Origin: Escherichia phage VEc20
Direction: 5' to 3' (one strand)
Sequence record: MN022785.1
Length of the DNA: 64,000 bases
This document shows positions 5,812 through 38,626 of this stretch, one piece after another; position 1 is the first letter of the stretch; each line of letters begins with the position of its first letter. The position numbers were made by a program, and so were the translations under genes. The notes beneath the pieces were generated by a model. It did not search any database and was not told where the DNA came from. It saw nothing but the letters and a program-made list of their open reading frames with translations.

Positions 5812-7320
5812 ATGGATATTAAAGTACATTTTCACGACTTCAGTCATGTACGCATCGATTGTGAAGAGAGCACGTTCCACGAATTAAGAGATTTCTTTTC
5901 GTTTGAGGCCGATGGATATAGATTTAACCCTCGCTTCAGATATGGCAACTGGGATGGGCGAATCCGTCTTTTAGATTATAATCGTCTTCTTCCATTCGGC
6001 TTAGTCGGGCAAATTAAAAAGTTCTGCGATAACTTTGGCTATAAAGCCTGGATTGACCCACAGATTAACGAAAAAGAAGAATTATCAAGAAAAGATTTTG
6101 ATGAATGGCTTTCTAAATTAGAAATCTATTCAGGAAATAAAAGAATTGAACCGCATTGGTATCAAAAAGATGCAGTGTTCGAAGGATTAGTTAATCGTCG
6201 TAGAATTCTTAATCTTCCAACATCCGCTGGTAAATCGTTAATTCAAGCTTTGCTTGCGCGATATTATTTGGAAAATTATGAAGGTAAAATTCTTATCATT
6301 GTTCCAACAACTGCTCTAACAACTCAGATGGCTGATGACTTCGTTGACTATCGTTTATTCAGTCATGCAATGATAAAGAAAATTGGTGGCGGAGCATCAA
6401 AAGATGATAAATATAAAAATGATGCACCAGTCGTTGTTGGTACATGGCAAACTGTAGTAAAACAACCGAAAGAATGGTTCTCACAGTTTGGAATGATGAT
6501 GAATGATGAATGCCATCTTGCTACAGGAAAAAGTATTTCATCTATCATATCAGGTTTAAATAACTGCATGTTCAAATTTGGTCTATCTGGTTCATTACGT
6601 GATGGCAAAGCCAATATCATGCAGTATGTTGGAATGTTTGGTGAAATATTTAAGCCAGTAACGACTTCTAAGTTAATGGAAGATGGACAAGTAACTGAGC
6701 TAAAAATTAATAGTATTTTTCTTCGCTATCCCGATGAGTTCACTACTAAATTAAAGGGAAAAACTTATCAAGAAGAAATAAAAATTATTACGGGGCTTAG
6801 TAAAAGAAATAAATGGATCGCTAAATTGGCTATTAAGCTTGCACAAAAAGATGAAAACGCTTTTGTCATGTTTAAACATGTATCACATGGTAAAGCTATT
6901 TTCGATTTAATTAAAAATGAATACGATAAAGTTTATTACGTATCAGGGGAAGTTGATACCGAAACCCGCAATATAATGAAAACCTTAGCTGAAAATGGTA
7001 AAGGAATAATTATAGTAGCTAGTTATGGTGTATTTTCTACTGGTATTTCAGTTAAAAATCTGCATCACGTTGTTTTAGCGCACGGTGTTAAATCAAAAAT
7101 CATTGTATTACAAACAATCGGTCGTGTATTACGTAAGCATGGTTCTAAAACAATCGCAACAGTCTGGGACCTCATAGATGACTGTGGTGTCAAGCCAAAA
7201 TCTGCTAATACTAAAAAGAAATATGTTCACTTGAACTATCTTTTAAAACACGGCATTGATCGTATTCAGCGCTACGCAGATGAAAAATTTAATTACGTAA
7301 TGAAAACAGTTAATTTATAA
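5812..7320 (+). CDS. uvsW: UvsW DNA helicase
   Basis: 502-aa ORF with Walker A (PTSAGKS) and DECH box. Confidence 0.9.
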   Translation: MDIKVHFHDFSHVRIDCEESTFHELRDFFSFEADGYRFNPRFRYGNWDGRIRLLDYNRLLPFGLVGQIKKFCDNFGYKAWIDPQINEKEELSRKDFDEWLSKLEIYSGNKRIEPHWYQKDAVFEGLVNRRRILNLPTSAGKSLIQALLARYYLENYEGKILIIVPTTALTTQMADDFVDYRLFSHAMIKKIGGGASKDDKYKNDAPVVVGTWQTVVKQPKEWFSQFGMMMNDECHLATGKSISSIISGLNNCMFKFGLSGSLRDGKANIMQYVGMFGEIFKPVTTSKLMEDGQVTELKINSIFLRYPDEFTTKLKGKTYQEEIKIITGLSKRNKWIAKLAIKLAQKDENAFVMFKHVSHGKAIFDLIKNEYDKVYYVSGEVDTETRNIMKTLAENGKGIIIVASYGVFSTGISVKNLHHVVLAHGVKSKIIVLQTIGRVLRKHGSKTIATVWDLIDDCGVKPKSANTKKKYVHLNYLLKHGIDRIQRYADEKFNYVMKTVNL

Positions 7321-8531: not shown

Positions 8532-8930
8532 TTATACTCTATTACTGGAAGCCAGTTGCAGTTTTATCTGCTCAATATCATCAGGGTTATCAATGACCGA
8601 AAAGCGTATTTCTACTATCAGAGTATAATCATCATAAACCGGTATTACATTAACTGCTAATTTATCAATACGTGGCTCATAGTTTCTTACTGCGCTTTCG
8701 ATGTTACGCTCAACCGTATCAGCAGTAAGAGGAGTCATATTTTCAAAAAGCTGATCTGATAAATCACATCCAAATTCAGGGTCAAAAGGTCTCGACCCCT
8801 TTCTGGTTGTAATAATTCCTAAAAGACTGTTTTTAATTGACCTTAATCCAAGAGATCTGGAAACGTCTTTGTCCCAATCCATTTTCATTTCTGGGTCAAT
8901 GTCAGAATAAAGCTTATTAATATTTGCCAT
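8532..8930 (-). CDS. 25: baseplate wedge protein gp25
   Basis: 132-aa ORF, T4 gp25 length and position. Confidence 0.85.
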   Translation of the reverse strand: MANINKLYSDIDPEMKMDWDKDVSRSLGLRSIKNSLLGIITTRKGSRPFDPEFGCDLSDQLFENMTPLTADTVERNIESAVRNYEPRIDKLAVNVIPVYDDYTLIVEIRFSVIDNPDDIEQIKLQLASSNRV

Positions 8931-9556
8931 TACAATAGCTCAAAGAATTCTTTGAGTCCTCTTATTACATGAGCGTGAGATTTTCCACACTCTGGACACT
9001 TAATTGGAACAGCCAAATAAACAGTAGGCTTTAAAAGCATATCTTTTATAGCTACAATATCTGACTCTGTGATGATAGAATATAAATCTTCCAACTCTTT
9101 TTCATTCAAGTCTTCAATTGGAATGCTTTCCCCGTTAGCATGAATCGTTTCTATGCATGATACTATCATGTGGGCTATATTTTTATCATCAAAAATTTTA
9201 GGGTAATGGAACTTAATTTTGATGTCACCCAGTGTATACCAGAGGTCTTCTGGTGCATCTATTTGTGTATGTAATAGATTTATATGGGTTGGTATTTCAG
9301 TTCCACAGGTGCACTTCCAGGAGTTTTCGTGATTAACTTCGCCGAGAGAATGTGCCCATAAATGAATCAACAATAGTTCTGATTCTTGGCGGTTTAAATC
9401 TTTTGCATTTGTGCAGTCTTTGATTAGCTTTTTAACAATTACTTCTACGGAACCATTATTTTTGGCAGTAATAAGTTCTAGATATTCTTTAAGCGTGAAT
9501 GCGCGACAATTGATTATTTTAGAACCAACTCTCACATCAAATTTGTATTCATACAT
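8930..9556 (-). CDS. 26: baseplate hub protein gp26
   Basis: 208-aa ORF; 1-nt overlap with gene 25; RBS AGGAG. Confidence 0.85.
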
Positions 9557-9577
9557 ATTTAGCTCCTTTATTTATCA

Positions 9578-9585
9578 TATTTATA
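9578..9585 (-). promoter_or_regulatory. late promoter TATAAATA (minus strand) for genes 26-25
   Basis: Plus-strand tatttata at 9578-9585, upstream of the gene 26 start at 9556. Confidence 0.55.
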
Positions 9586-9589
9586 AATA
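9582..9589 (+). promoter_or_regulatory. late promoter TATAAATA for gene 51
   Basis: Exact motif 18 nt upstream of the gene 51 ATG; divergent with the minus-strand late promoter. Confidence 0.6.
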
Positions 9590-9606
9590 GAATAAAAGGA
9601 GCATCT

Positions 9607-10356
9607 ATGGCAAACATTATTCGTTGTAAATTACCAGATGGTGTTCATCGTTTTAAACCATTTACGGTAGAAGATTATCGAGATTTTTTGTTAGTTCGAA
9701 ACGATATAGAACATCGGTCACCACAAGAACAAAAAGAAATAATTACTGATTTAATTGATGATTATTTTGGAGACTATCCGAAGACTTGGCAACCATTTAT
9801 ATTTTTGCAGGTATTTGTAGGGTCAATAGGTAAAACTAAAGTACCAGTCACATTCGTATGTCCAAAATGTAAAAAAGAAAAGACAGTTCCATTTGAAATA
9901 TATCAAAAAGAATTAAAGGAACCTGTTTTTGATGTAGCTAATGTTAAAATTAAATTAAAGTTTCCTTCTGAGTTTTATGAAAATAAAGCAAAGATGATTA
10001 CTGAAAATATTCATTCCGTCCAAGTAGATGAAATTTGGTATGATTGGAAGGAAATTAGCGAGTCCAGTCAAATAGAACTAGTTGACGCCATCGAGATAGA
10101 AACATTAGAAAAAATTCTCGATGCAATGAATCCTATTAATTTAACTCTACATATGTCATGCTGTAATAAGTACATTAAAAAATACACTGATATAGTAGAC
10201 GTGTTTAAGCTATTAGTTAACCCAGATGAGATATTTACTTTTTATCAAATTAATCACACACTCGTAAAAAGTAATTATAGCTTAAATTCAATAATGAAAA
10301 TGATTCCTGCCGAGCGCGGATTCGTATTAAAACTGATTGAGAAGGATAAACAATAA
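9607..10356 (+). CDS. 51: baseplate hub assembly protein gp51
   Basis: 249-aa ORF, T4 gp51 length and position. Confidence 0.85.
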
Positions 10357-11531
10357 TGAGTATGTTGCAACGCCCCGGATATCCAAATCTCAGCGTTAAA
10401 TTATTTGATAGCTACGACGCTTGGAGTAATAATAGATTTGTTGAATTAGCTGCTACTATTACCACATTAACTATGCGGGATTCTCTTTATGGCCGAAATG
10501 AAGGAATGCTGCAGTTTTATGATTCTAAAAACATCCATACAAAAATGGATGGAAATGAAATAATTCAGATTTCTGTAGCTAATGCAAATGATATTAATAA
10601 TGTTAAAACACGAATTTATGGATGTAAGCATTTTTCCGTGTCAGTAGATTCAAAAGGTGATAACATCATTGCTATTGAATTGGGAACTATTCATTCTATA
10701 GAAAATCTTAAATTTGGTAGACCATTTTTCCCTGATGCGGGTGAATCTATAAAAGAAATGCTTGGCGTCATTTATCAAGACCGTACATTATTAACTCCAG
10801 CGATAAATGCTATAAATGCTTATGTTCCTGATATTCCATGGACTAGCACATTTGAAAACTATTTGTCATATGTCAGAGAAGTTGCTCTAGCTGTAGGAAG
10901 CGACAAATTTGTATTTGTGTGGCAAGACATCATGGGAGTTAACATGATGGACTATGATATGATGATAAATCAAGAACCATATCCAATGATTGTCGGTGAG
11001 CCATCTTTAATAGGTCAATTTGTCCAAGAATTAAAATATCCATTAGCATATGATTTTGTTTGGTTGACTAAATCGAATCCTCACAAACGTGACCCAATGA
11101 AAAACGCTACTATCTATGCGCATTCATTTTTAGATTCTTCATTGCCAATGATTACTACAGGAAAGGGTGAAAACTCTATTGTAGTGTCAAGGTCAGGTGC
11201 TTATTCTGAAATGACTTATAGGAATGGATATGAAGAAGCTATTCGTCTTCAAACTATGGCACAATATGACGGCTATGCTAAATGTTCTACTGTCGGTAAT
11301 TTTAACTTGACTCCTGGTGTTAAAATTATTTTTAATGATAGTAAAAACCAATTTAAAACAGAATTTTACGTTGATGAAGTTATCCATGAATTATCCAATA
11401 ATAATTCAGTAACTCATCTATATATGTTCACTAATGCAACGAAACTGGAAACAATAGACCCAGTTAAGGTTAAAAATGAATTTAAATCTGATACTACCAC
11501 TGAAGAAAGTAGTTCTTCCAATAAGCAATAA
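10356..11531 (+). CDS. 27: baseplate hub protein gp27
   Basis: 391-aa ORF, T4 gp27 length; TAATG overlap with gene 51. Confidence 0.9.
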
Positions 11532-12009
11532 AGAAGTTTCTATTCCTAAAATGGGTCTTAAACATTATAACATTTTAAAAGATGTTAAAGGTCCTGATGA
11601 AAATTTAAAACTTCTTATTGATTCTATTTGTCCGAATTTATCGCCGGCAGAAGTTGATTTCGTTTCTATTCATTTATTGGAATTTAATGGAAAGATTAAA
11701 TCTCGTAAAGAAATAGATGGCTATACTTATGACATTAATGATGTCTATGTATGCCAAAGATTGGAATTTCAATACCAAGGAAATACATTTTATTTTAGAC
11801 CTCCTGGAAAATTTGAACAATTTTTAACGGTGAGCGATATGTTATCTAAATGCTTGCTTAAGGTCAACGATGAAGTTAAAGAAATTAATTTTCTTGAGAT
11901 GCCAGCATTCGTTTTAAAATGGGCAAATGATATTTTTACAACTTTAGCAATTCCTGGCCCTAATGGTCCAATAACTGGAATTGGCAATATTATTGGATTA
12001 TTTGAATGA
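11476..12009 (+). CDS. 28: baseplate hub distal protein gp28
   Basis: 177-aa ORF overlapping the gene 27 3' end in another frame. Confidence 0.75.
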
Positions 12010-13778
12010 AAAAGCCACAAGAAATGCAAACGATGCGTAGAAAAGTTATTTCAGATAATAAACCAACACAGGAAGCGGCTAAATCCGCTTCCAACACTTT
12101 ATCTGGGCTTAATGACATTTCTACAAAATTGGATGATGCTCAAGCTGCTTCTGAATTAATTGCTCAAACTGTCGAAGAAAAATCGAATGAAATAATTGGA
12201 GCAATTGACAATGTAGAAAGTGCAGTGAGTGATACTACTGCTGGTTCTGAGTTAATTGCTGAAACTGTCGAAATTGGCAACAATATTAATAAAGAAATCG
12301 GTGAATCACTCGGAAGCAAATTAGATAAATTAACAAGTTTACTAGAGCAAAAAATCCAGACAGCTGGAATTCAACAGACTGGAACTAGTTTAGCCACTGT
12401 TGAAAGCGCTATTCCTGTTAAAGTCGTTGAGGATGATACTGCCGAATCTGTGGGTCCTTTATTACCAGCTCCCGAAGCAGTTAATAATGATCCTGACGCT
12501 GATTTTTTCCCTACCCCTCAACCAGTTGAACCCAAACAAGAATCGCCAGAAGAAAAACAGAAAAAAGAAGCATTTAACTTAAAATTATCTCAAGCTTTAG
12601 ATAAATTAACAAAGACTGTTGATTTTGGATTTAAGAAATCCATTTCAATTAGTGATAAAATATCAAGCATGTTATTTAAGTACACCATAAGTGCTGCTAT
12701 TGAAGCTGCTAAAATGACTGCAATGATATTGGCTGTTGTTGTTGGAATAGACCTTTTGATGGTTCATTTTAAATACTGGTCAGATAAATTTTCAAAAGCC
12801 TGGGATTTATTTAATACTGACTTTACTAAATTCTCTAGCGAAACCGGAACATGGGGTCCTTTATTACAGAGCATCTTTAGTTCTATTGATGAAATTAAAA
12901 AGTTTTGGGAAGCCGGAGATTGGGGTGGATTGACAGTAGCTATTGTTGAAGGGCTTGGAAGTGTTCTTTATAATTTAGGAGAGCTTATTCAATTAGGTAT
13001 GGCTAAATTATCTGCAGCAATTCTTCGAGTCATTCCTGGCATGAAGGATACTGCTGATGAAGTAGAAGGAAGAGCATTAGAAAATTTCCAAAATTCTACT
13101 GGAGCATCTCTTAATAAAGAAGACCAAGAAAAAGTAGCAAATTATCAAGATAAACGAATGAATGATGATCTTGGCCCAATAGCAAAAGGATTAGACAAAA
13201 TTGCGAACTGGAAAACTCGTGCATCTAACTGGATTCGTGGTGTAGATAATAAAGAAGCATTGACTACTGACGAAGAACGTGCAGCAGAAGAAGAAAAATT
13301 AAAACAACTTTCACCGGAAGAAAGAAAAAATGCTTTAATGAAAGCTAATGAAGCTCGTGCTGCGATGATTCGTTTTGAAAAATATGCTGATTCAGCTGAT
13401 ATGAGCAAAGACTCGACAGTTAAATCAATTGAAGCTGCTCATGAAGACCTTAAAAAACGAATGAATGATCCGGATTTAAATAATTCACCAGCAGTTAAAA
13501 AAGAACTTGCTTCTAGATTTGCTAAAATTGATGCCACTTATCAAGAGCTCAAGAAAAATCAACCTGAAGCAAAACCTGAAACTTCTGCTAAATCACCAGA
13601 AGCAAAACAGGTCCAGGTGATTGAAAAGAACAAAGCACAGCAAGCTCCTGTTCAACAAGCATCTCCTTCAATCAATAATACTAATAATGTTATTAAGAAA
13701 AATACTGTCGTTCATAATATGACACCCGTAACGAGCACGACTGCTCCTGGTGTATTTGATGCGACTGGAGTTAATTAA
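12006..13778 (+). CDS. 29: baseplate hub / tail length determinator gp29
   Basis: 590-aa ORF, T4 gp29 length; ATGA overlap with gene 28. Confidence 0.85.
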   Translation: MKKPQEMQTMRRKVISDNKPTQEAAKSASNTLSGLNDISTKLDDAQAASELIAQTVEEKSNEIIGAIDNVESAVSDTTAGSELIAETVEIGNNINKEIGESLGSKLDKLTSLLEQKIQTAGIQQTGTSLATVESAIPVKVVEDDTAESVGPLLPAPEAVNNDPDADFFPTPQPVEPKQESPEEKQKKEAFNLKLSQALDKLTKTVDFGFKKSISISDKISSMLFKYTISAAIEAAKMTAMILAVVVGIDLLMVHFKYWSDKFSKAWDLFNTDFTKFSSETGTWGPLLQSIFSSIDEIKKFWEAGDWGGLTVAIVEGLGSVLYNLGELIQLGMAKLSAAILRVIPGMKDTADEVEGRALENFQNSTGASLNKEDQEKVANYQDKRMNDDLGPIAKGLDKIANWKTRASNWIRGVDNKEALTTDEERAAEEEKLKQLSPEERKNALMKANEARAAMIRFEKYADSADMSKDSTVKSIEAAHEDLKKRMNDPDLNNSPAVKKELASRFAKIDATYQELKKNQPEAKPETSAKSPEAKQVQVIEKNKAQQAPVQQASPSINNTNNVIKKNTVVHNMTPVTSTTAPGVFDATGVN

Positions 13779-30505: not shown

Positions 30506-32093
<1,588 letters not shown>

Positions 32094-32101
32094 AATAAAA
32101 T

Positions 32102-32115
32102 GGGCCTTGCGGCCC
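32102..32115 (-). other. intergenic hairpin between nrdB and denA
   Basis: GGGCC-TTGC-GGCCC; GCAA loop in minus-strand RNA, followed by AUUUUAUU. Confidence 0.4.
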
Positions 32116-32120
32116 ACTCC

Positions 32121-33290
32121 TTAAAAATATTTTTTAAAACTCATCATAACTTTATCATCAACATCATTATCAATCTGTGCTACAAGGTAAGATGACAGTT
32201 CTACTTCTTGCGGCGCGGATTGAACATTATCAGAATTAAGGTATTCACGAATCCAAGGATATGGATGTTTAACCGGAGCATCGGTAATTGGGCATGGAAG
32301 ACCGCACTGTTTCATACGAGATACAGTTAAGTAATCAATAAAGCTCCACATGCTATTTGTATTTAATCCAGGAACATCACCATCTTTAAATAAATGAACT
32401 GCCCAATCTTTTTCTTGGCGGTTAACTTCCATGAAAATATCAACTGCTTCTTGTTCACACTCTTGAGCAATTTTAACCCATTCATCGCCATCAGTGCCAA
32501 GTTGAAGTTGACGAATAATATATTGAGTGCCTTTAAGGTGAAGCTGCTCATCACGTGCAATGAACTTCATAATCTTGGCATTACCTTCCATGATTTCCAT
32601 ATTCTTGTGGAAGTTAAAGGTACATGCGAAAGATACATAAAAACGAATAGCTTCTAAGGCATTAATAACGTGCAAACAGAGGTAAAGAGATTTCATTAGC
32701 TCTCGTTTGGCGTATTCAACGACTTTACCAAGTTCATCTTTGCGCCAACCTTCAGACAAAATTCCTTCGTATTCTTCTTTAGCGTTTTCCCAATAACGAG
32801 TTTTAATCAGAACATCATCATAATAACGTCCAATGGATTCAGCACGTTTCATAATAGCTTCATCTAGTACAATCTCATCAAATACCTTTGACGGATCAGT
32901 ATAAAGATTTCGCATGATATGTGTATATGAACGGCTGTGAATAGTTTCACTAAAAGTCCATGTAGCAACCCATGTATCAAGGCTTGGGTCTGAAATTAAT
33001 GACATAAGTACAGCAGACGGTGCACGACCCTGAATGCTATCCAAAAGTGATTGATACTTCAGGTTATTAGTAAAAATATTTTGCTGATACTGAGGAAGCT
33101 TATTAAACTGTGCAGCATCCATCATTAAGTTTACTTCTTCAGGACGCCAGAAAAATGATAAAGATTTCTCAATAAGTTCTTCAAATACTCTATGCCGTTG
33201 AATATCATATCGAGCTAAACCCAATCCAGAACCAAAAAACATCGGCTCAGTCAAAATATTAACAGGGGATGTATTAAAAACTGTACTCAT
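32121..33290 (-). CDS. nrdB: ribonucleotide reductase small subunit NrdB (uninterrupted)
   Basis: Continuous 389-aa ORF with no intron. Confidence 0.9.
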   Translation of the reverse strand: MSTVFNTSPVNILTEPMFFGSGLGLARYDIQRHRVFEELIEKSLSFFWRPEEVNLMMDAAQFNKLPQYQQNIFTNNLKYQSLLDSIQGRAPSAVLMSLISDPSLDTWVATWTFSETIHSRSYTHIMRNLYTDPSKVFDEIVLDEAIMKRAESIGRYYDDVLIKTRYWENAKEEYEGILSEGWRKDELGKVVEYAKRELMKSLYLCLHVINALEAIRFYVSFACTFNFHKNMEIMEGNAKIMKFIARDEQLHLKGTQYIIRQLQLGTDGDEWVKIAQECEQEAVDIFMEVNRQEKDWAVHLFKDGDVPGLNTNSMWSFIDYLTVSRMKQCGLPCPITDAPVKHPYPWIREYLNSDNVQSAPQEVELSSYLVAQIDNDVDDKVMMSFKKYF

Positions 33291-33928
33291 TTAGAATCCT
33301 TAAATTTACATTTATCATAATGCCATCTTAGAGCATTGCCTTTATTAACTTTCTTGCCACAATGCGGACAAGGCGGATACTCTATACTTTGCTTAGTTCT
33401 CAAAGAAATCAAATCGCGAGTTTCTTTAGTATGAGGAACATCTCTTGTCGGAGAGATTGTACCATACATCGGATTAAGCACGCCGACTTTAGCAGCAGCT
33501 ATATTCTTTTTAGCTTCTTCGGTTTTAGGTTTTCTCATGCGAGCTAAATGCTCTTTGGTAAATTTCCTTCCTTTAAGAGCTCTACTTATCTTTTCCCTGG
33601 TTTCTATAGAAACTTCACGTCCTATAGCAGCTTCAGATAAACGTCGTCTACCTAATTCGTATAGTTGAGAAGAAATTTTATATGAGCGATTTTTACCAGT
33701 CAAGCACATTAAACCAAAAGCTTTCTTTAATCCTGGGGTGTCATATATTTTGCATAAAAGCCAATGAGCTATAAAATGCTCTCTACCTGTTAATTCAACT
33801 AAATTTTCTTTATCATCAGAACCTCCCATGCATCTAGGGATTATATGATGAGTCTCTTTATATCCTAATAAAGGTTCCCGAGCCTGAGCTCGGGAAATTA
33901 GGTCATTATAGATTTTTTGATAATTCAT
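33287..33928 (-). CDS. mobE: HNH homing endonuclease (mobE-like)
   Basis: 213-aa ORF with HNH motif HHIIPRCMGGSDDKENLVELTGREHFIAH; sits between nrdA and nrdB where T4 carries mobE. Confidence 0.6.
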   Translation of the reverse strand: MNYQKIYNDLISRAQAREPLLGYKETHHIIPRCMGGSDDKENLVELTGREHFIAHWLLCKIYDTPGLKKAFGLMCLTGKNRSYKISSQLYELGRRRLSEAAIGREVSIETREKISRALKGRKFTKEHLARMRKPKTEEAKKNIAAAKVGVLNPMYGTISPTRDVPHTKETRDLISLRTKQSIEYPPCPHCGKKVNKGNALRWHYDKCKFKDSK

Positions 33929-36192
33929 TACAATTTACACGCTGCACAATCTTCAGCTTTTGGAGTTTCTATTTCATAATCATCAGTACCAGAACCATCG
34001 CGGGTATTATGATAATAGAAATTTTTTCCGCCAAAATACCAAAAATACAAAAGGTCATCAATCATTATTGACATTGGAACCTTGCCTTTAGGGAAGATTT
34101 GGGGGTCATAGTATGTATTCGCCGAAGCTGATTGACAAACCCATTTCAGCATAATAGCTACCTGCGTAAGATAAGGTTTATTACCTTTCTTAGCTAATTT
34201 CCATGTATAGTCGTAAAGGTCTATGTTATGCTCAATATTGGGCACGACCTGATTAAAGGAGCCCTCTTTTGATTCTTTAACAGAGACTGGTCCACGTGGA
34301 GGCTCGATACCGTTTGTACTGTTAGAAACTTGGGAAGATGACTCACATGGCATAAGTGCTGATAATGTGCTATTACGGATGCCAAAGAGCTTAAGGTCTT
34401 CCCGCAGCGACGACCAGTCACAAACGTATTTTGGAGCTGCGATTTGGTCAATCTTTTTATTGTACCAGTCGATAGGTAATTCGCCTCGAGACCAACGAGT
34501 GTCTGAATAATATTCGCAAGGTCCTTTTTCTTTGGCGAGCTTAATGGATGCTTTAATGAGTCCATACTGTAATCTCTCAAATAGTTCATGTGTTAAATCG
34601 TTAGCATCTTCATAAGAAGCAAAGTTACTTGCCAGCCAAGCTGCATAGTTAGTAACACCTACACCGAGGTTACGACGCTTTTTAGCTTTTTCTGCTTCAG
34701 GAACTGGATATCCTTGGTAATCCAAAAGATTATCAAGAGCACGAACTTGGACTTCTGCCAATTCATTAATTTTATCTTGGTCTTGCCAATCAAAATTATC
34801 CAGTACGAATGCAGAAAGAGTACACAATCCAATTTCAGCATCAGGACTATTCACATCATTTGTTGGAATAGCAATTTCACAGCACAAGTTACTCTGACGA
34901 ATAGGTGCCTTTTCACGAATAAACGGAGTATAGTTATTCGTATTATCAATGAACTGCACATAAATCCTTGCTGTTCCTGAACGTTCAGTCATGAGCAATT
35001 CAAATAGTTCACGGGCTTTAATACGCTTTTTACGAATATTAGGGTCTTTTTCTGCGGCTTCGTATAATTCACGGAAACGGTCTTGGTCTTTAAAATAAGA
35101 ATAATAAAGCTCGCCACCCATTTCATGCGGACTGAACAAAGTAATGTAATCGTTCTTTCCGAATCGTTCCATCATCAAATCATTCAGCTGAACACCATAA
35201 TCCATATGACGAATGCGGTTTTCTTCTACGCCTTTGTTATTTTTCAAAACGAGAAGATTTTCAACTTCCAAATGCCAAATAGGATAATAAGCAGTAGCAG
35301 CGCCGCCACGAATTCCACCCTGTGAACATGATTTAACTGCAGTCTGAAAATGTTTCCAAAAAGGAATAACACCAGTATGACGTACTTCACCCATGTCAAT
35401 CTTAGAACCTTCAGCACGAATCATACCAACGTTAATACCAATTCCAGCGCGTTTAGAGATATATTCAACAATTGAAGCAGAAGCTTTATTAATTGACTTC
35501 AATGAATCACCAGCTTCAATAACAACACATGAACTAAACTGTCGAGTCGGAGTACGGCAACCAGCCATAATAGGAGTTGGCAATGAAATCTGTCGAGTAG
35601 ATACCGCTTCATAAAAACGAATAACATGTTTTAATCTATCAACAGGTTCATCTTGATGCAATGCCATTCCAATAGTCATAAATGCAAACTGTGGAGTTTC
35701 ATAAATTTGACCAGTGGTTTTATCTTTAACTAGATATTTTTCTTTTAATTGCATCGCCCCGGAATAAGTAAATTCCATATCCCGCTCGTGCTTAATTTTT
35801 GATTCTAAAAATGTAATTTCTTCTGCTGAATATTTTGACAATAATTCAGGGTCGTATTTACCTTCATTTACACAGTAAGAAATATGGTCAATAAATGAAC
35901 GTGGTTCATACTGCCCATAAACATGCTTACGAAGAGCAAACATTAAACAGCGTGCAGCTACATATTGATAATCAGGCTCTTCAACCGAAATAGAATTCGC
36001 AGCGGCCTTAATGACAATAGTCTGAATATCATCAGTTGTCATTCCATCACGGAGATAAGATTTAATATTTTCATATAATTCATAAGGATCTACTGATGTT
36101 CCCTCAGCTGCCCAAGATAAAACTTTAATAATTTTTTGCGGGTCAAAGCTCTGAGAAACACCACTACTTTTGATAACATTAATTAATTGCAT
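33928..36192 (-). CDS. nrdA: ribonucleotide reductase large subunit NrdA
   Basis: 754-aa ORF, T4 NrdA length. Confidence 0.9.
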   Translation of the reverse strand: MQLINVIKSSGVSQSFDPQKIIKVLSWAAEGTSVDPYELYENIKSYLRDGMTTDDIQTIVIKAAANSISVEEPDYQYVAARCLMFALRKHVYGQYEPRSFIDHISYCVNEGKYDPELLSKYSAEEITFLESKIKHERDMEFTYSGAMQLKEKYLVKDKTTGQIYETPQFAFMTIGMALHQDEPVDRLKHVIRFYEAVSTRQISLPTPIMAGCRTPTRQFSSCVVIEAGDSLKSINKASASIVEYISKRAGIGINVGMIRAEGSKIDMGEVRHTGVIPFWKHFQTAVKSCSQGGIRGGAATAYYPIWHLEVENLLVLKNNKGVEENRIRHMDYGVQLNDLMMERFGKNDYITLFSPHEMGGELYYSYFKDQDRFRELYEAAEKDPNIRKKRIKARELFELLMTERSGTARIYVQFIDNTNNYTPFIREKAPIRQSNLCCEIAIPTNDVNSPDAEIGLCTLSAFVLDNFDWQDQDKINELAEVQVRALDNLLDYQGYPVPEAEKAKKRRNLGVGVTNYAAWLASNFASYEDANDLTHELFERLQYGLIKASIKLAKEKGPCEYYSDTRWSRGELPIDWYNKKIDQIAAPKYVCDWSSLREDLKLFGIRNSTLSALMPCESSSQVSNSTNGIEPPRGPVSVKESKEGSFNQVVPNIEHNIDLYDYTWKLAKKGNKPYLTQVAIMLKWVCQSASANTYYDPQIFPKGKVPMSIMIDDLLYFWYFGGKNFYYHNTRDGSGTDDYEIETPKAEDCAACKL

Positions 36193-36509
36193 AAGTCCTC
36201 AACTTGAAAATCGTCTTTAAACAATCGGTTAACTATATGAGCTATTATATCACCATGACACGGCTTTGGTTTACATGTGCATCCTAGCCTCATTCCGCGT
36301 AAAGGCTCTAAATGTGCTTTAGTTATTTCTCCGGATTTAATTCGACGTATAAAATCTTTTTTGAATAATTCAATGGCAGCCTCCCGGCTGCCAGCATCTT
36401 TACCGACGTAATTTCCCCAAAATGTACCGCGGTGAATATTAATATCAAAGTCGGATTTATATTTATTCACTACCTGGCATAGACGGCCCGCGCGACGATA
36501 ATTCGTCAT
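36183..36509 (-). CDS. hypothetical protein
   Basis: 108-aa ORF with Cys/His cluster ([11 protein letters not shown]). Confidence 0.5.
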
Positions 36510-36738
36510 ATTGTTTTTCCGTTAAAACAGTAATATCATAGTAACAATCAGAAGAAGTTTTAACTGTAGAAATTTTATTATCAAAATACTCACGAGTCAT
36601 TTTATGAGTATAATATTTTTTACCATAAATGATAATAGGCTGATTTGGTCCTGGAACTTCTAACTCGCTTGGGTTAGGAAGTGTAAAAAGAATGGCACCA
36701 GAAGTATCTTTAAATCGTAAAATCATATATCCTCTCAA
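36463..36738 (-). CDS. hypothetical protein
   Basis: 91-aa ORF. Confidence 0.45.
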
Positions 36739-36749
36739 TTAAATTAAAA

Positions 36750-37061
36750 TTATACCGCCATTTTTCCTTTCAAGACACCGTGGGATTGATAATCTTTGAG
36801 AACGAAATCTTTAGGCCTAAGTTTAAGAACATATTTTAATTGTTCTTTAGTAGAAAGATATCGGAATTTATAAGGTAGACCACTTATTACCAGCTCACAA
36901 AGCTCTTTAGGTTCACGCCTCAAAATTTCTTTACATTGTTCTACGTGATTCATATAGATATGAGTATTACCACCAGAAAATATCAAATCTCCTGGAATAA
37001 GATTACACATCTTAGCTACAATATGCGTCAAGGCAGCGTACGAGGCAATGTTGAACGGTAG
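36750..37061 (-). CDS. td: thymidylate synthase, exon 2
   Basis: Encodes LPFNIASYAALTHIVAKMC... through the stop; the 3' splice site follows the intron-terminal G at 37062. Confidence 0.85.
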   Translation of the reverse strand, partial: LPFNIASYAALTHIVAKMCNLIPGDLIFSGGNTHIYMNHVEQCKEILRREPKELCELVISGLPYKFRYLSTKEQLKYVLKLRPKDFVLKDYQSHGVLKGKMAV

Positions 37062-38077
37062 CATTATGTTCAGATAAGGTCGTTAATCTTATCCCGGAAT
37101 TATATCCAGCTGCATGTCACCATGCAGAGCAGACTATATCTCCAACTTGTTAAAGCAAGTTGTCTATCGTTTCGAGTCACTTGACCCTACTCCCTAAAGG
37201 GATAGTCGTTAGGCATTTATGTAGAACCAATTCCACTTATCAGATTTTACACGGTAAGTAACTAATCCTGATGAAATTTCAAAATGTCTAGCCGCATCGG
37301 CTGCACATTCAAAAATAATCCCATCGCATGAAATCTTTTTGATGTTAGCTGGCTTTTTGCCTTTCATCTTTTCAGATAGTTTAGTTTTAGTTTTTTCTGA
37401 ATGTTTGTGATTAAAGAACGGGTTATTTTCACCTGAACGTTTTCGGCACTTTCCACAAGTATCGGCCGAAGATGGTATGCGAACACCGCATTTACAAAAC
37501 TTGTGGTTTTCTGGATTCCATCGGCCATTTTTACTTCCGTGTTTACCATAAAGAGCTTTCCGACCATCAGGACCAAGCTTAAGCATCTTAGCTTTAACAG
37601 TTTCAGCTCGTTTCTTAGCAATTTCTTCTTTTAATGGATGATTTGAAAGCACATCGCCAAAAGACGCATCAGCAATATTATATCCATTAATTTTAGAATT
37701 TAGCTCTTTAATCCAAAAATTTTCTCGTTCAATAATCAAATCTTTCTCATATGGAATTTCTTCCAGTACAGAGCATTCAAAAACATTACCATGTTTATTA
37801 AAAGACCTTTGAAATTTTATAGAAGAGTGAACACCGTTTTCAAGGTCTTTAAAATGTCTCTTCCATCTTTTCTCAAAATCTTTAGCACTTCCAACATACA
37901 CTTTACCGTTTAAAGTGTTTTTAATCTGATAAATTCCGCTTTTCATAAACACCTCTTTTTATATAGAAGTATTTATTAAAGGGTAGTCCTACAATTTAGC
38001 ACGGGATTGTCTACTAGAGAGGTCCCCCGTTTAGATAGATTACAAGTATAAGTCACCTTATACCTAGGCCTAAATTA
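37062..38077 (-). mobile_element. td group I self-splicing intron carrying the I-TevI gene
   Basis: 1016 nt between exon 1 (...FLG) and exon 2; 5' end reads UAAUUUAGGCCUAGGUAUAAGGUGAC and 3' end ...CAUAAUG, as in the T4 td intron. Confidence 0.85.
37209..37946 (-). CDS. I-TevI: intron-encoded GIY-YIG homing endonuclease I-TevI
   Basis: 245 aa from ATG 37946 (MKSGIYQIKNTLNGKVYVGS...) with RBS GAGG. Confidence 0.85.
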   Translation of the reverse strand: MKSGIYQIKNTLNGKVYVGSAKDFEKRWKRHFKDLENGVHSSIKFQRSFNKHGNVFECSVLEEIPYEKDLIIERENFWIKELNSKINGYNIADASFGDVLSNHPLKEEIAKKRAETVKAKMLKLGPDGRKALYGKHGSKNGRWNPENHKFCKCGVRIPSSADTCGKCRKRSGENNPFFNHKHSEKTKTKLSEKMKGKKPANIKKISCDGIIFECAADAARHFEISSGLVTYRVKSDKWNWFYINA

Positions 38078-38626
38078 ACCCAAGAAAACATCTACACTGC
38101 GTTGATACCACTGCAAATCCAAATAGCCATTACGCACATTAAACTGATAGAACATATGACAAGGCGGTAATGCCATATATTTAAGTTCAGCTGGATTCCA
38201 CGCAGAAACAATTTGTCGCCTATCATTCGGCAGTTTTTTAATACGATCAATAACTTCTACAATTTGGTCTACACCGCCAAAATCACGCCACTGTTTTCCA
38301 TAAATTGGACCAAGTTCACCGCTATGGTATCCTAAATCTTTTGCTTGATTTTCGTAATTTTCATCCCAGACTGTTTTGCCTTGAATTAATGAATCATGCT
38401 GAATTAATCGTAAATCATTGACATTTGTGCTTCCTGATAAAAACCAAAGTAGCTCAGCAATGCATGCATTCCAGGCGAGCTTTTTAGTTGTTACTGCAGG
38501 AAAACCTTTACTTAAATCCCAGCGTAATTTAGTACCGAACAAAGCAATTGTTCCTGTGCCTGTTCGATCATCGGTTTCATAGCCATTTTCAAAAATGTCT
38601 TTAATTAAATCTTGGTATTGTTTCAT
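38078..38626 (-). CDS. td: thymidylate synthase, exon 1
   Basis: 183 codons MKQYQDLIKD...QRSVDVFLG ending at the 5' splice site; 183 + 103 = 286 aa. Confidence 0.85.

What the first reader, a model, noticed from the sequence alone, without database searches (positions are those of the whole stretch)
32121..33928. Uninterrupted nrdB beside a mobE-like HNH endonuclease gene
nrdB is one continuous 389-aa ORF, whereas the T4 reference nrdB is split by a group I intron encoding I-TevIII. The nrdA-nrdB spacer still carries a 213-aa HNH endonuclease gene at the T4 mobE position. The locus is therefore a natural intron-minus target next to a free-standing endonuclease.
Basis: partly seen in the sequence, partly recalled or inferred. 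Interest (0 to 1): 0.45.

Follow-up and report, generated by a model that had tools for sequence, protein, structure and literature searches.

The report
Known T6-type mobE beside intronless nrdB
This is the ordinary ribonucleotide-reductase locus of a T4-like coliphage, carrying the already described T6-type version of the mobile endonuclease gene mobE next to an nrdB gene that, like most of its relatives, has no intron.

Summary
On the minus strand, nrdB (32121-33290, 389 aa) is one continuous ORF. It is colinear with spliced T4 NrdB and with E. coli R2. A 213-aa HNH/NUMOD3 gene (33287-33928) fills the whole nrdA-nrdB gap.

That gene is mobE. It is 97% identical to the annotated MobE of phage T6, 100% identical to phage JEP6, and 70% identical to T4 MobE. 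It keeps the published T4 mobE hallmarks: the UAAUGA overlap with nrdA and the internal terminator hairpin.

The window is a Tequatrovirus, 98.6% identical to phage Lutter over this locus. None of this is new:
- The same mobE allele is in 35 database records, including T6 and LZ7. At least 26 of those 35 are intronless.
- The nrdB intron is a minority state, found in 129 of about 570 related records.

[quoted passage not shown] The window carries the T6-type polymorphic haplotype there.

The I-TevIII homing site is 76/80 identical to the tested T4 substrate. The window is therefore a plausible but untested intron recipient.

Verdict: real, already known, low interest.

The parts
33928..36192 (-). 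nrdA, class Ia ribonucleotide reductase large subunit (754 aa). Its stop codon overlaps the mobE start.
   Evidence: ORF. Pfam ATP-cone, Ribonuc_red_lgN and Ribonuc_red_lgC. Annotated nrdA in T4, T6 and Lutter.
33925..33930 (-). TAATGA overlap: the nrdA TAA stop shares one base with the mobE ATG. This is the same arrangement described for T4 and suggests translational coupling.
   Evidence: Sequence. The UAAUGA arrangement is described for T4 in PMC2988022.
33287..33928 (-). mobE, T6-type allele: a free-standing HNH homing endonuclease gene (213 aa).
   Evidence: 97% identical to T6 MobE, 70% to T4 MobE, 100% to JEP6. phrog_655 at E = 1.7e-66, the same family as T4 MobE. dN/dS is 0.15 against the Dhakavirus LHE83 orthologue.
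33764..33859 (-). HNH catalytic motif (MobE aa 24-55: KETHHIIPRCMGGSDDKENLVELTGREHFIAH).
   Evidence: Pfam HNH, 23.1 bits against a cut-off of 21.4. The motif aligns with HNH domains of PDB chains. The residues are invariant in 5 MobE alleles. In T4, deleting aa 33-62 abolishes nicking (PMC2790892).
33875..33896 (-). Internal intrinsic terminator hairpin of mobE (9-bp stem, 4-nt loop, short U tract). In T4 it attenuates mobE transcription.
   Evidence: Terminator scan. The hairpin is identical in T4, T6, RB3, LHE83, Lutter and SHFML-26. T4 experiments are in PMC2790892.
33533..33748 (-). Central region of mobE (aa 61-132, linker plus NUMOD3 repeats). It defines the T6-type allele and is strongly diverged from T4.
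   Evidence: 30/72 aa and 50% nt identity to T4, with 19 gap columns, against 92-94% nt identity in the two flanking parts. No blastn match to T4 here. Pfam NUMOD3 at aa 103-121. 35 records share this segment.
33308..33370 (-). C-terminal Cys/His cluster (CPHCG...HYDKC, aa 187-207). It is presumed to be a zinc-binding part of the DNA-binding domain (inference).
   Evidence: The sequence is conserved between T4-type and T6-type MobE.
33456..33482 (-). Candidate MotA-type middle promoter for nrdB inside the mobE 3' region (TGCTTA, 13 nt, TACAAT). This is an inference from the motif only.
   Evidence: The motif and surrounding sequence are shared with T4, apart from one substitution just 3' of the -10 box. 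PMC2790892 states that a middle promoter for nrdB lies in the 3' region of mobE.
32121..33290 (-). nrdB, class Ia ribonucleotide reductase small subunit: one uninterrupted ORF of 389 aa.
33160..33177 (-). nrdB nt 114-131, the polymorphic block around the position where T4 MobE nicks T2 nrdB (nt 122-126 = window 33165-33169). The window has the T6-type haplotype GAG AAA TCT TTA TCA.
   Evidence: Comparison of 8 phages. Nick mapping is in PMC2790892. The haplotype is found in 39 records.
32700..32777 (-). Variable cassette of NrdB (aa 172-197), here a rare allele. It aligns with E. coli R2 residues about 169-188.
   Evidence: Four unrelated versions occur in 8 otherwise nearly identical NrdBs. 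The window type is in only 12 records. Alignment to E. coli R2 is.
32584..32663 (-). Empty intron insertion site, between 32624 and 32623 (after nrdB nt 667), with the I-TevIII homing-site homologue from -40 to +40.
   Evidence: 76/80 identical to T4 with the intron removed. Differences are at -5, -2, +17 and +23, all synonymous. The -14/-16 cleavage positions are from PMC1865063.
31683..32117 (-). denA (endonuclease II, GIY-YIG), the downstream neighbour. Context only.
   Evidence: Pfam GIY-YIG. Annotated denA in T4 and T6.

Best explanation
The locus is the nrdA-mobE-nrdB module of a Tequatrovirus, in the haplotype already known from phage T6: a T6-type mobE allele plus an intronless nrdB.

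mobE encodes a modular free-standing HNH homing endonuclease. The architecture is shown here; the activity is inferred from T4 experiments.
- Expression: by analogy with T4, mobE has no promoter of its own. It is transcribed from the nrdA promoters, translated through the UAAUGA stop/start overlap, and attenuated by the hairpin terminator inside its 5' end. nrdB is re-supplied by a middle promoter inside the mobE 3' end.
- Action: in a mixed infection with a mobE-less relative, MobE nicks the other phage's nrdB near nt 122-126. Repair from the mobE-bearing genome copies mobE and its flanks.
- Self-protection: the carrier's own nrdB differs from T2 in the polymorphic block nt 114-131, which may protect it. 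This is an inference.

The absence of the nrdB group I intron is simply the majority state of the genus. Because the I-TevIII site is almost unchanged, this phage could receive the intron from an RB3-like phage. That is an inference and was not tested.
For: Identity and synteny with T6, T4 and Lutter. Full-length MobE homology and a shared PHROG family. Intact HNH and NUMOD3 domains. A conserved TAATGA overlap and terminator hairpin. Purifying selection on the T6-type protein, with dN/dS 0.15 at dS 0.92 against LHE83. The T6-type nick-site haplotype in the window, which occurs in 39 records that largely overlap the 35 mobE T6-type records. Intron absence with working positive controls. Frequencies: 113 records with the mobE 5' end, 35 T6-type, 129 with the nrdB intron, out of about 570 Tequatrovirus-level matches. 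Published mechanism for T4 MobE (PMC2790892) and for I-TevIII (PMC1865063).
Against: All functional steps are borrowed from T4-type MobE. The T6-type allele has a diverged central linker/NUMOD3 region with one repeat fewer, so its target could differ.

The nick-site haplotype is not strictly linked to mobE. It also occurs in mobE-less EPIMRB01 and TB004, in Aplg8 with an RB3-type gene, and in hef-bearing U5. HY03 and HMD-9 are in the mobE T6-type list but not in the haplotype list. The role of the haplotype in self-immunity is therefore unproven.

Even for T4, MobE activity has never been shown with purified protein (PMC2790892).
Confidence: 0.9

Rival explanations
1. mobE here is a domesticated or decaying relic. 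It is kept only because it carries regulatory signals for nrdB (the terminator and the middle promoter), not because it is an active endonuclease.
For: The two ends that hold the hairpin and the candidate promoter are the best conserved parts between T4 and T6 alleles, at 92-94% nt identity against 50% in the middle. PMC2790892 argues that the embedded promoter selects against deletion of mobE.
Against: The ORF is intact and the HNH residues are invariant. dN/dS is 0.15 overall and 0.23 even in the diverged central part against LHE83, at dS about 0.9-1.3. That indicates selection on the protein, not only on the DNA signals.
Confidence: 0.07
2. The intronless nrdB results from recent precise loss of the intron from a T4/RB3-like ancestor, rather than from never having had it.
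For: Intron-plus and intron-minus phages share the same mobE allele (SHFML-26 against the window and T6). The intron is therefore gained or lost within this lineage.
Against: All four intron-containing alleles examined have G at exon position -2, which can pair with the intron's internal guide. All five intronless alleles have A or T there. The window also differs from the intron-plus exon flanks at -5, +17 and +23. A recent precise loss would have left the intron-type flanks.
Confidence: 0.1
3. The neighbouring endonuclease targets this very nrdB at the empty intron site, as in collaborative homing, where a free-standing enzyme cuts at the intron insertion site.
For: The gene is adjacent to nrdB. 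T4 MobE does mobilise the nrdB intron in trans (PMC2790892).
Against: The mapped nicks are at nrdB nt 122-126, not at the insertion site at nt 667. [quoted passage not shown] The window's own sequence at the nick region differs from the T2 substrate at many positions.
Confidence: 0.03

Closest known systems
Phage T6 (and LZ7) nrdA-mobE-nrdB locus
   Same: Same gene order. Same 213-aa MobE allele (97% aa, 97% nt). Same overlaps with nrdA and nrdB. Same nick-site haplotype. Intronless nrdB.
   Different: The NrdB aa 172-197 cassette differs: T6 has the T4-type and the window has a rare type shared with Lutter. Three substitutions after the mobE terminator give S21L and E22G. There are synonymous differences around the intron insertion site.
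Phage T4 mobE / nrdB intron / I-TevIII system (Wilson & Edgell 2009, PMC2790892)
   Same: The HNH domain, the C-terminal 81 aa (79/81 identical), the UAAUGA overlap, the internal terminator and the position between nrdA and nrdB.
   Different: T4 MobE is 232 aa, with a different central region and one more NUMOD3-like repeat. T4 nrdB carries the 598-nt intron with a truncated I-TevIII. T4 has a different nick-site haplotype, GAG CGG CAG ATC AGT.
Phage RB3 nrdB intron with functional I-TevIII (Robbins et al. 2007, PMC1865063)
   Same: The exon sequence from -40 to -6 of the insertion site, including the cut positions at -14/-16, is identical to the window.
   Different: RB3 has the 1091-nt intron. 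Its 'mobE' shares only the N-terminal ~60 aa with the window protein (13/81 identical in the C-terminal part).
Hef of phage U5 (a gene that replaces mobE)
   Same: It occupies the same nrdA-nrdB gap. U5 nrdB has the T6-type nick-site haplotype.
   Different: A 544-aa protein with no detectable similarity to the window protein (E = 1.4).

Membership tests
MobE (T-even free-standing HNH homing endonuclease between nrdA and nrdB) | Full-length sequence homology to T4 MobE | tested here: met
   70% identity over 213/232 aa, E = 1e-116. 97% identity to annotated T6 MobE. Same PHROG, phrog_655. The central aa 61-132 are only 30/72 identical.
MobE (T-even free-standing HNH homing endonuclease between nrdA and nrdB) | Intact N-terminal HNH nuclease motif | tested here: met
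   Pfam HNH at 23.1 bits, cut-off 21.4. H27, H28, N42, H51 and H55 are invariant in 5 alleles.
MobE (T-even free-standing HNH homing endonuclease between nrdA and nrdB) | C-terminal DNA-binding module with NUMOD3 repeats | tested here: met
   Pfam NUMOD3 at 34.5 bits, cut-off 20.4. There is one repeat fewer than in T4 (19-aa gap).
MobE (T-even free-standing HNH homing endonuclease between nrdA and nrdB) | Insertion between nrdA and nrdB with a UAAUGA stop/start overlap and an internal 5' terminator hairpin | tested here: met
   These are compared with the descriptions in PMC2790892 and PMC2988022.
MobE (T-even free-standing HNH homing endonuclease between nrdA and nrdB) | [quoted passage not shown] | not testable with these tools
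   This needs phage crosses and primer extension. It is known only for the T4 allele (PMC2790892).
Hef-type endonuclease (phage U5) | Sequence similarity to U5 Hef | tested here: not met
   BLASTP best E = 1.4.
nrdB group I intron carrying I-TevIII | Intron sequence or structure interrupting nrdB after the codon-222/223 junction (T4 nt 664) | tested here: not met
   The ORF is continuous and colinear. There is no blastn match to the T4 intron. There is no Intron_gpI match up to E = 10, while both controls score 36 bits.
I-TevIII homing site (cleavable intron-minus allele) | Sequence matching the tested T4 intron-deleted substrate across the cleavage (-14/-16) and insertion sites | tested here: inconclusive
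   76/80 identical, and identical from -40 to -6. Substitutions are at -5, -2, +17 and +23. Tolerance of I-TevIII to these changes is unknown.
Class Ia ribonucleotide reductase small subunit (NrdB/R2) | Full-length R2 fold sequence with the conserved segments that hold the di-iron ligands, the radical tyrosine and W48 | tested here: met
   Pfam Ribonuc_red_sm, E = 7.7e-37. Aligns over 3-385 with E. coli R2, E = 1e-129. The FFWRPEE, LLDSIQGR, FSETIHSRSYTHI, NALEAIRFYVSFAC and IARDExLHL segments are conserved.

The most novel reading that the evidence does not exclude
The T6-type mobE allele may be a functional specificity variant, not just a diverged copy. Its swapped central linker/NUMOD3 region could give it a target or immunity relationship different from T4-type MobE. 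The T6-type nrdB haplotype at nt 114-135 would then be its cognate immunity mark. On this reading, mobE-less phages that carry the haplotype (EPIMRB01, TB004) were 'vaccinated' by short gene-conversion tracts that copied the resistant site but not the endonuclease gene. Different mobE alleles would compete by cutting each other's carriers.
Probability: 0.2. Interest if true: 0.4.

Novelty: already known. Interest (0 to 1): 0.1.

Why it matters
It matters little as a discovery. The same arrangement is annotated in phage T6 and in dozens of sequenced Tequatroviruses. [quoted passage not shown]

Its modest value is as a data point. It shows that the nrdA-nrdB region is a mosaic of independently assorting blocks:
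- the mobE allele;
- the nick-site haplotype;
- an NrdB surface cassette;
- intron presence or absence.

This fits repeated homing-driven gene conversion. The phage would also be a convenient natural recipient for testing I-TevIII homing, and a donor for testing the specificity of the T6-type MobE allele.

Tried and rejected
- Rfam at gathering threshold over the whole window found nothing. I rejected this as evidence of 'no intron', because the td intron present in the window is also missed. I replaced it with E-value scans that have two positive controls.
- A PDB sequence search with MobE gave only marginal HNH-motif matches (E 0.2-0.9), so no solved relative was found by sequence. I did not run structure prediction, because the allowed inputs would have needed an expensive homologue search and the answer would not change the verdict.
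- The paper of Sandegren et al. 2005 (SegH/Hef, PMC1275590) is not held. I therefore could not check which mobE allele was used in their crosses, or where Hef cuts.
- I considered strict linkage between the nick-site haplotype and mobE. It is rejected as absolute: 7 of 39 haplotype records lack T6-type mobE, and these include two phages with no endonuclease gene at all.
- A possible hidden frameshift or pseudogene in nrdB or mobE is rejected: both ORFs are full length and under purifying selection.

Full report
**What is there**

The window is a T4-like coliphage of the genus Tequatrovirus. Region 31600-36300 matches phage vB_EcoM_Lutter at 98.6% identity. It matches 577 phage records over at least 80% of its length.

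All genes in the region lie on the minus strand:

| Gene | Window coordinates |
|---|---|
| rnlA | 30506-31666 |
| denA | 31683-32117 |
| nrdB | 32121-33290 |
| 213-aa HNH gene | 33287-33928 |
| nrdA | 33928-36192 |
| nrdA.1 | 36183-36509 |
| nrdA.2 | 36463-36738 |
| td exon 2 (end) | 36750-37064 |
| I-TevI ORF | 37209-37952 |
| td exon 1 | 38075-38626 |

This is the order annotated in T4, T6 and Lutter. There is no nrdA-nrdB spacer. The HNH ORF shares one base with the nrdA stop (TAATGA) and four bases with the nrdB start (ATGA).

**nrdB is uninterrupted**

- The 389-aa product aligns over residues 3-385 with E. coli R2 residues 3-373 (E = 1e-129). The conserved segments are intact.
- It aligns end to end with the spliced NrdB of T4, RB3 and SHFML-26.
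- Aligning the T4 gene places its 598-nt intron after T4 nt 664. That corresponds to window nrdB nt 667, between window 32624 and 32623.
- blastn finds no T4 intron sequence in the region.
- The Rfam scan at gathering threshold was uninformative, because it also misses the td intron in this window.
- In E-value mode, Intron_gpI is found in the td intron (36.2 bits) and in the T4 nrdB intron (35.7 bits). It is not found in 31600-34200 up to E = 10.

**The HNH gene is mobE**

- The protein has Pfam HNH and NUMOD3 domains.
- It falls in phrog_655, as T4 MobE does.
- It is 70% identical to T4 MobE over the full length, 97% identical to the annotated MobE of T6 and 100% identical to the JEP6 protein.
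- It is unrelated to Hef of phage U5.

Similarity to T4 is mosaic:

| MobE region | nt identity to T4 | aa identity to T4 |
|---|---|---|
| aa 1-60 (HNH) | 92% | 54/60 |
| aa 61-132 (linker and NUMOD3 repeats) | 50%, with a 19-aa gap | 30/72 |
| aa 133-213 | 94% | 79/81 |

This central segment defines a 'T6-type' allele. It is present in 35 records, including T6 (AY262134, annotated MobE) and LZ7 (DQ178119).

The protein is under purifying selection. dN/dS is 0.15 against the Dhakavirus LHE83 orthologue at dS 0.92. It is therefore not a relic.

The regulatory hallmarks described for T4 mobE are present:
- the UAAUGA overlap (PMC2988022);
- the 9-bp/4-nt hairpin terminator at 33896-33875 (PMC2790892), which is identical in every allele compared;
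- a MotA-box-like promoter motif shared with T4 at 33482-33456. This assignment is an inference.

**How it most likely works**

The mechanism is taken from T4 and is inferred for this allele. According to PMC2790892:
- T4 mobE is promoterless and is co-transcribed with nrdA.
- It is attenuated by its internal terminator.
- It causes a strand-specific nick at nt 122-126 of T2 nrdB.
- It is inherited at about twice the input frequency.
- It drags the defunct nrdB intron along in trans.

In the window, the corresponding block (nrdB nt 121-135) reads GAG AAA TCT TTA TCA, as in T6 and SHFML-26. T2 has GAA AAG CAG TTG TCA and T4 has GAG CGG CAG ATC AGT.

The haplotype occurs in 39 records, which largely overlap the 35 mobE T6-type records. 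The overlap is incomplete in both directions:
- It also occurs in EPIMRB01 and TB004, which have the T2-like 51-nt spacer and no endonuclease gene.
- It occurs in Aplg8, which has an RB3-type gene, and in hef-bearing U5.
- HY03 and HMD-9 have T6-type mobE but are absent from the haplotype list.

A self-immunity role for the haplotype is therefore plausible but unproven.

**Is it an intron-minus target?**

[quoted passage not shown] Across -40 to +40 the window is 76/80 identical to that substrate. It is identical from -40 to -6. Synonymous changes lie at -5, -2, +17 and +23.

All four intron-containing alleles examined have G at -2. All five intronless alleles have A or T there. This fits a pairing constraint with the intron's guide sequence, which is my inference. 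It also argues against a recent precise loss of the intron.

Whether I-TevIII would cut the window site cannot be decided computationally.

**How common is the arrangement?**

Among about 570 Tequatrovirus-level matches to the locus:

| Feature | Records |
|---|---|
| mobE 5' end (any allele) | 113 |
| T6-type mobE allele | 35 |
| nrdB intron | 129 (85 at >=80% coverage) |

Of the 35 T6-type records, at least 26 match the window locus as one uninterrupted 4.7-kb piece in the listed rows. Five records carry a roughly 1.1-kb insertion in nrdB: SHFML-26 (two records), HY03 (two records) and ECOLIGBLB0003. That insertion was examined as the intron in SHFML-26. Intronless nrdB is the rule, and T4 is the exception.

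**Verdict**

The locus is an already described, commonly sequenced haplotype. Both points overstate the case. The novelty category is 'already known', and interest is about 0.1.

**Side observations**

1. NrdB aa 172-197 is a discrete cassette with four unrelated versions among eight otherwise nearly identical proteins.
   - The window version is rare: 12 records.
   - It aligns with E. coli R2 residues about 169-188.
   - It assorts independently of the mobE allele.
2. Three substitutions just 3' of the mobE terminator (33869-33864) create a perfect complement of the conserved CCTAAT at 33902-33897.
   - They extend the stem, with RNAfold energy -20.7 against -16.7 kcal/mol.
   - Only three other records share the variant.
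   - The pattern looks like a templated quasi-palindrome correction.
3. The RB3 and Aplg8 'mobE' genes share only the first ~60 aa with T4-type and T6-type MobE.

Noticed in passing
window 32700-32777 (nrdB nt 514-591, NrdB aa 172-197): A discrete hypervariable cassette in an otherwise nearly invariant NrdB. Four unrelated versions occur among 8 phages: window/Lutter, T4/T6, RB3/SHFML-26 and T2/LHE83. The window version is in only 12 database records. It assorts independently of the mobE allele and of the intron. It aligns with E. coli R2 residues about 169-188. One T4 x T2 recombinant junction reported in PMC2790892 lies at nt 505-515, at the cassette's 5' edge.
   Followed up: partly
window 33864-33902 (minus strand, inside mobE codons 9-22): Three substitutions (TC[C/T]GAA to TTAGGA, giving MobE S21L and E22G) lie just after the U tract of the mobE terminator. 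They create ATTAGG, a perfect complement of the conserved CCTAAT upstream of the hairpin. This extends the predicted stem, -20.7 against -16.7 kcal/mol. Only JEP6, KarlGJung and GRNsp7 share the variant, out of 113 records with the mobE 5' end. It looks like a quasi-palindrome templated mutation. Its effect on termination is unknown.
   Followed up: partly
L010 (EPIMRB01) and L011 (TB004), nrdA-nrdB junction near 2353-2548; L009 (Aplg8) 1675-2421: The T6-type nrdB nick-site haplotype also occurs in phages with no endonuclease gene between nrdA and nrdB (T2-like 51-nt spacer). It also occurs in a phage with an RB3-type gene. In EPIMRB01 and TB004 the first ~60 nt of nrdB are T2-like. This suggests short conversion tracts that transferred the site without mobE.
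   Followed up: partly
window 36750-38626 (minus strand): td is split by a group I intron carrying an I-TevI ORF (37209-37952). This phage is therefore intron-plus at td and intron-minus at nrdB. Rfam Intron_gpI scores only 36.2 bits here, against a gathering score of 50, so it is missed at the default threshold.
   Followed up: partly
L006 (RB3) 5864-6595; L009 (Aplg8) 1675-2421: The gene annotated mobE in RB3 shares only the N-terminal ~60 aa (the HNH domain, plus the identical terminator hairpin) with T4-type and T6-type MobE. It has an unrelated C-terminal domain. 'mobE' at this locus therefore covers at least three alleles with modular C-termini.
   Followed up: partly
window 32625-32626 (exon position -2 of the empty intron site) and loci L001, L004, L006, L008: Position -2 relative to the intron insertion site is G in all four intron-containing alleles (T4, RB3, SHFML-26, U5). 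It is A or T in all five intronless alleles (window, Lutter, T6, T2, LHE83). This is consistent with a P1 pairing constraint imposed by the intron, which is an inference.
   Followed up: no
L005 (phage T2 record AP018813) 8785-12279: The T2 record mislabels nrdB as 'thymidylate synthase' and nrdA as 'single stranded DNA-binding protein'. Name-based searches of that record would miss the locus.
   Followed up: no
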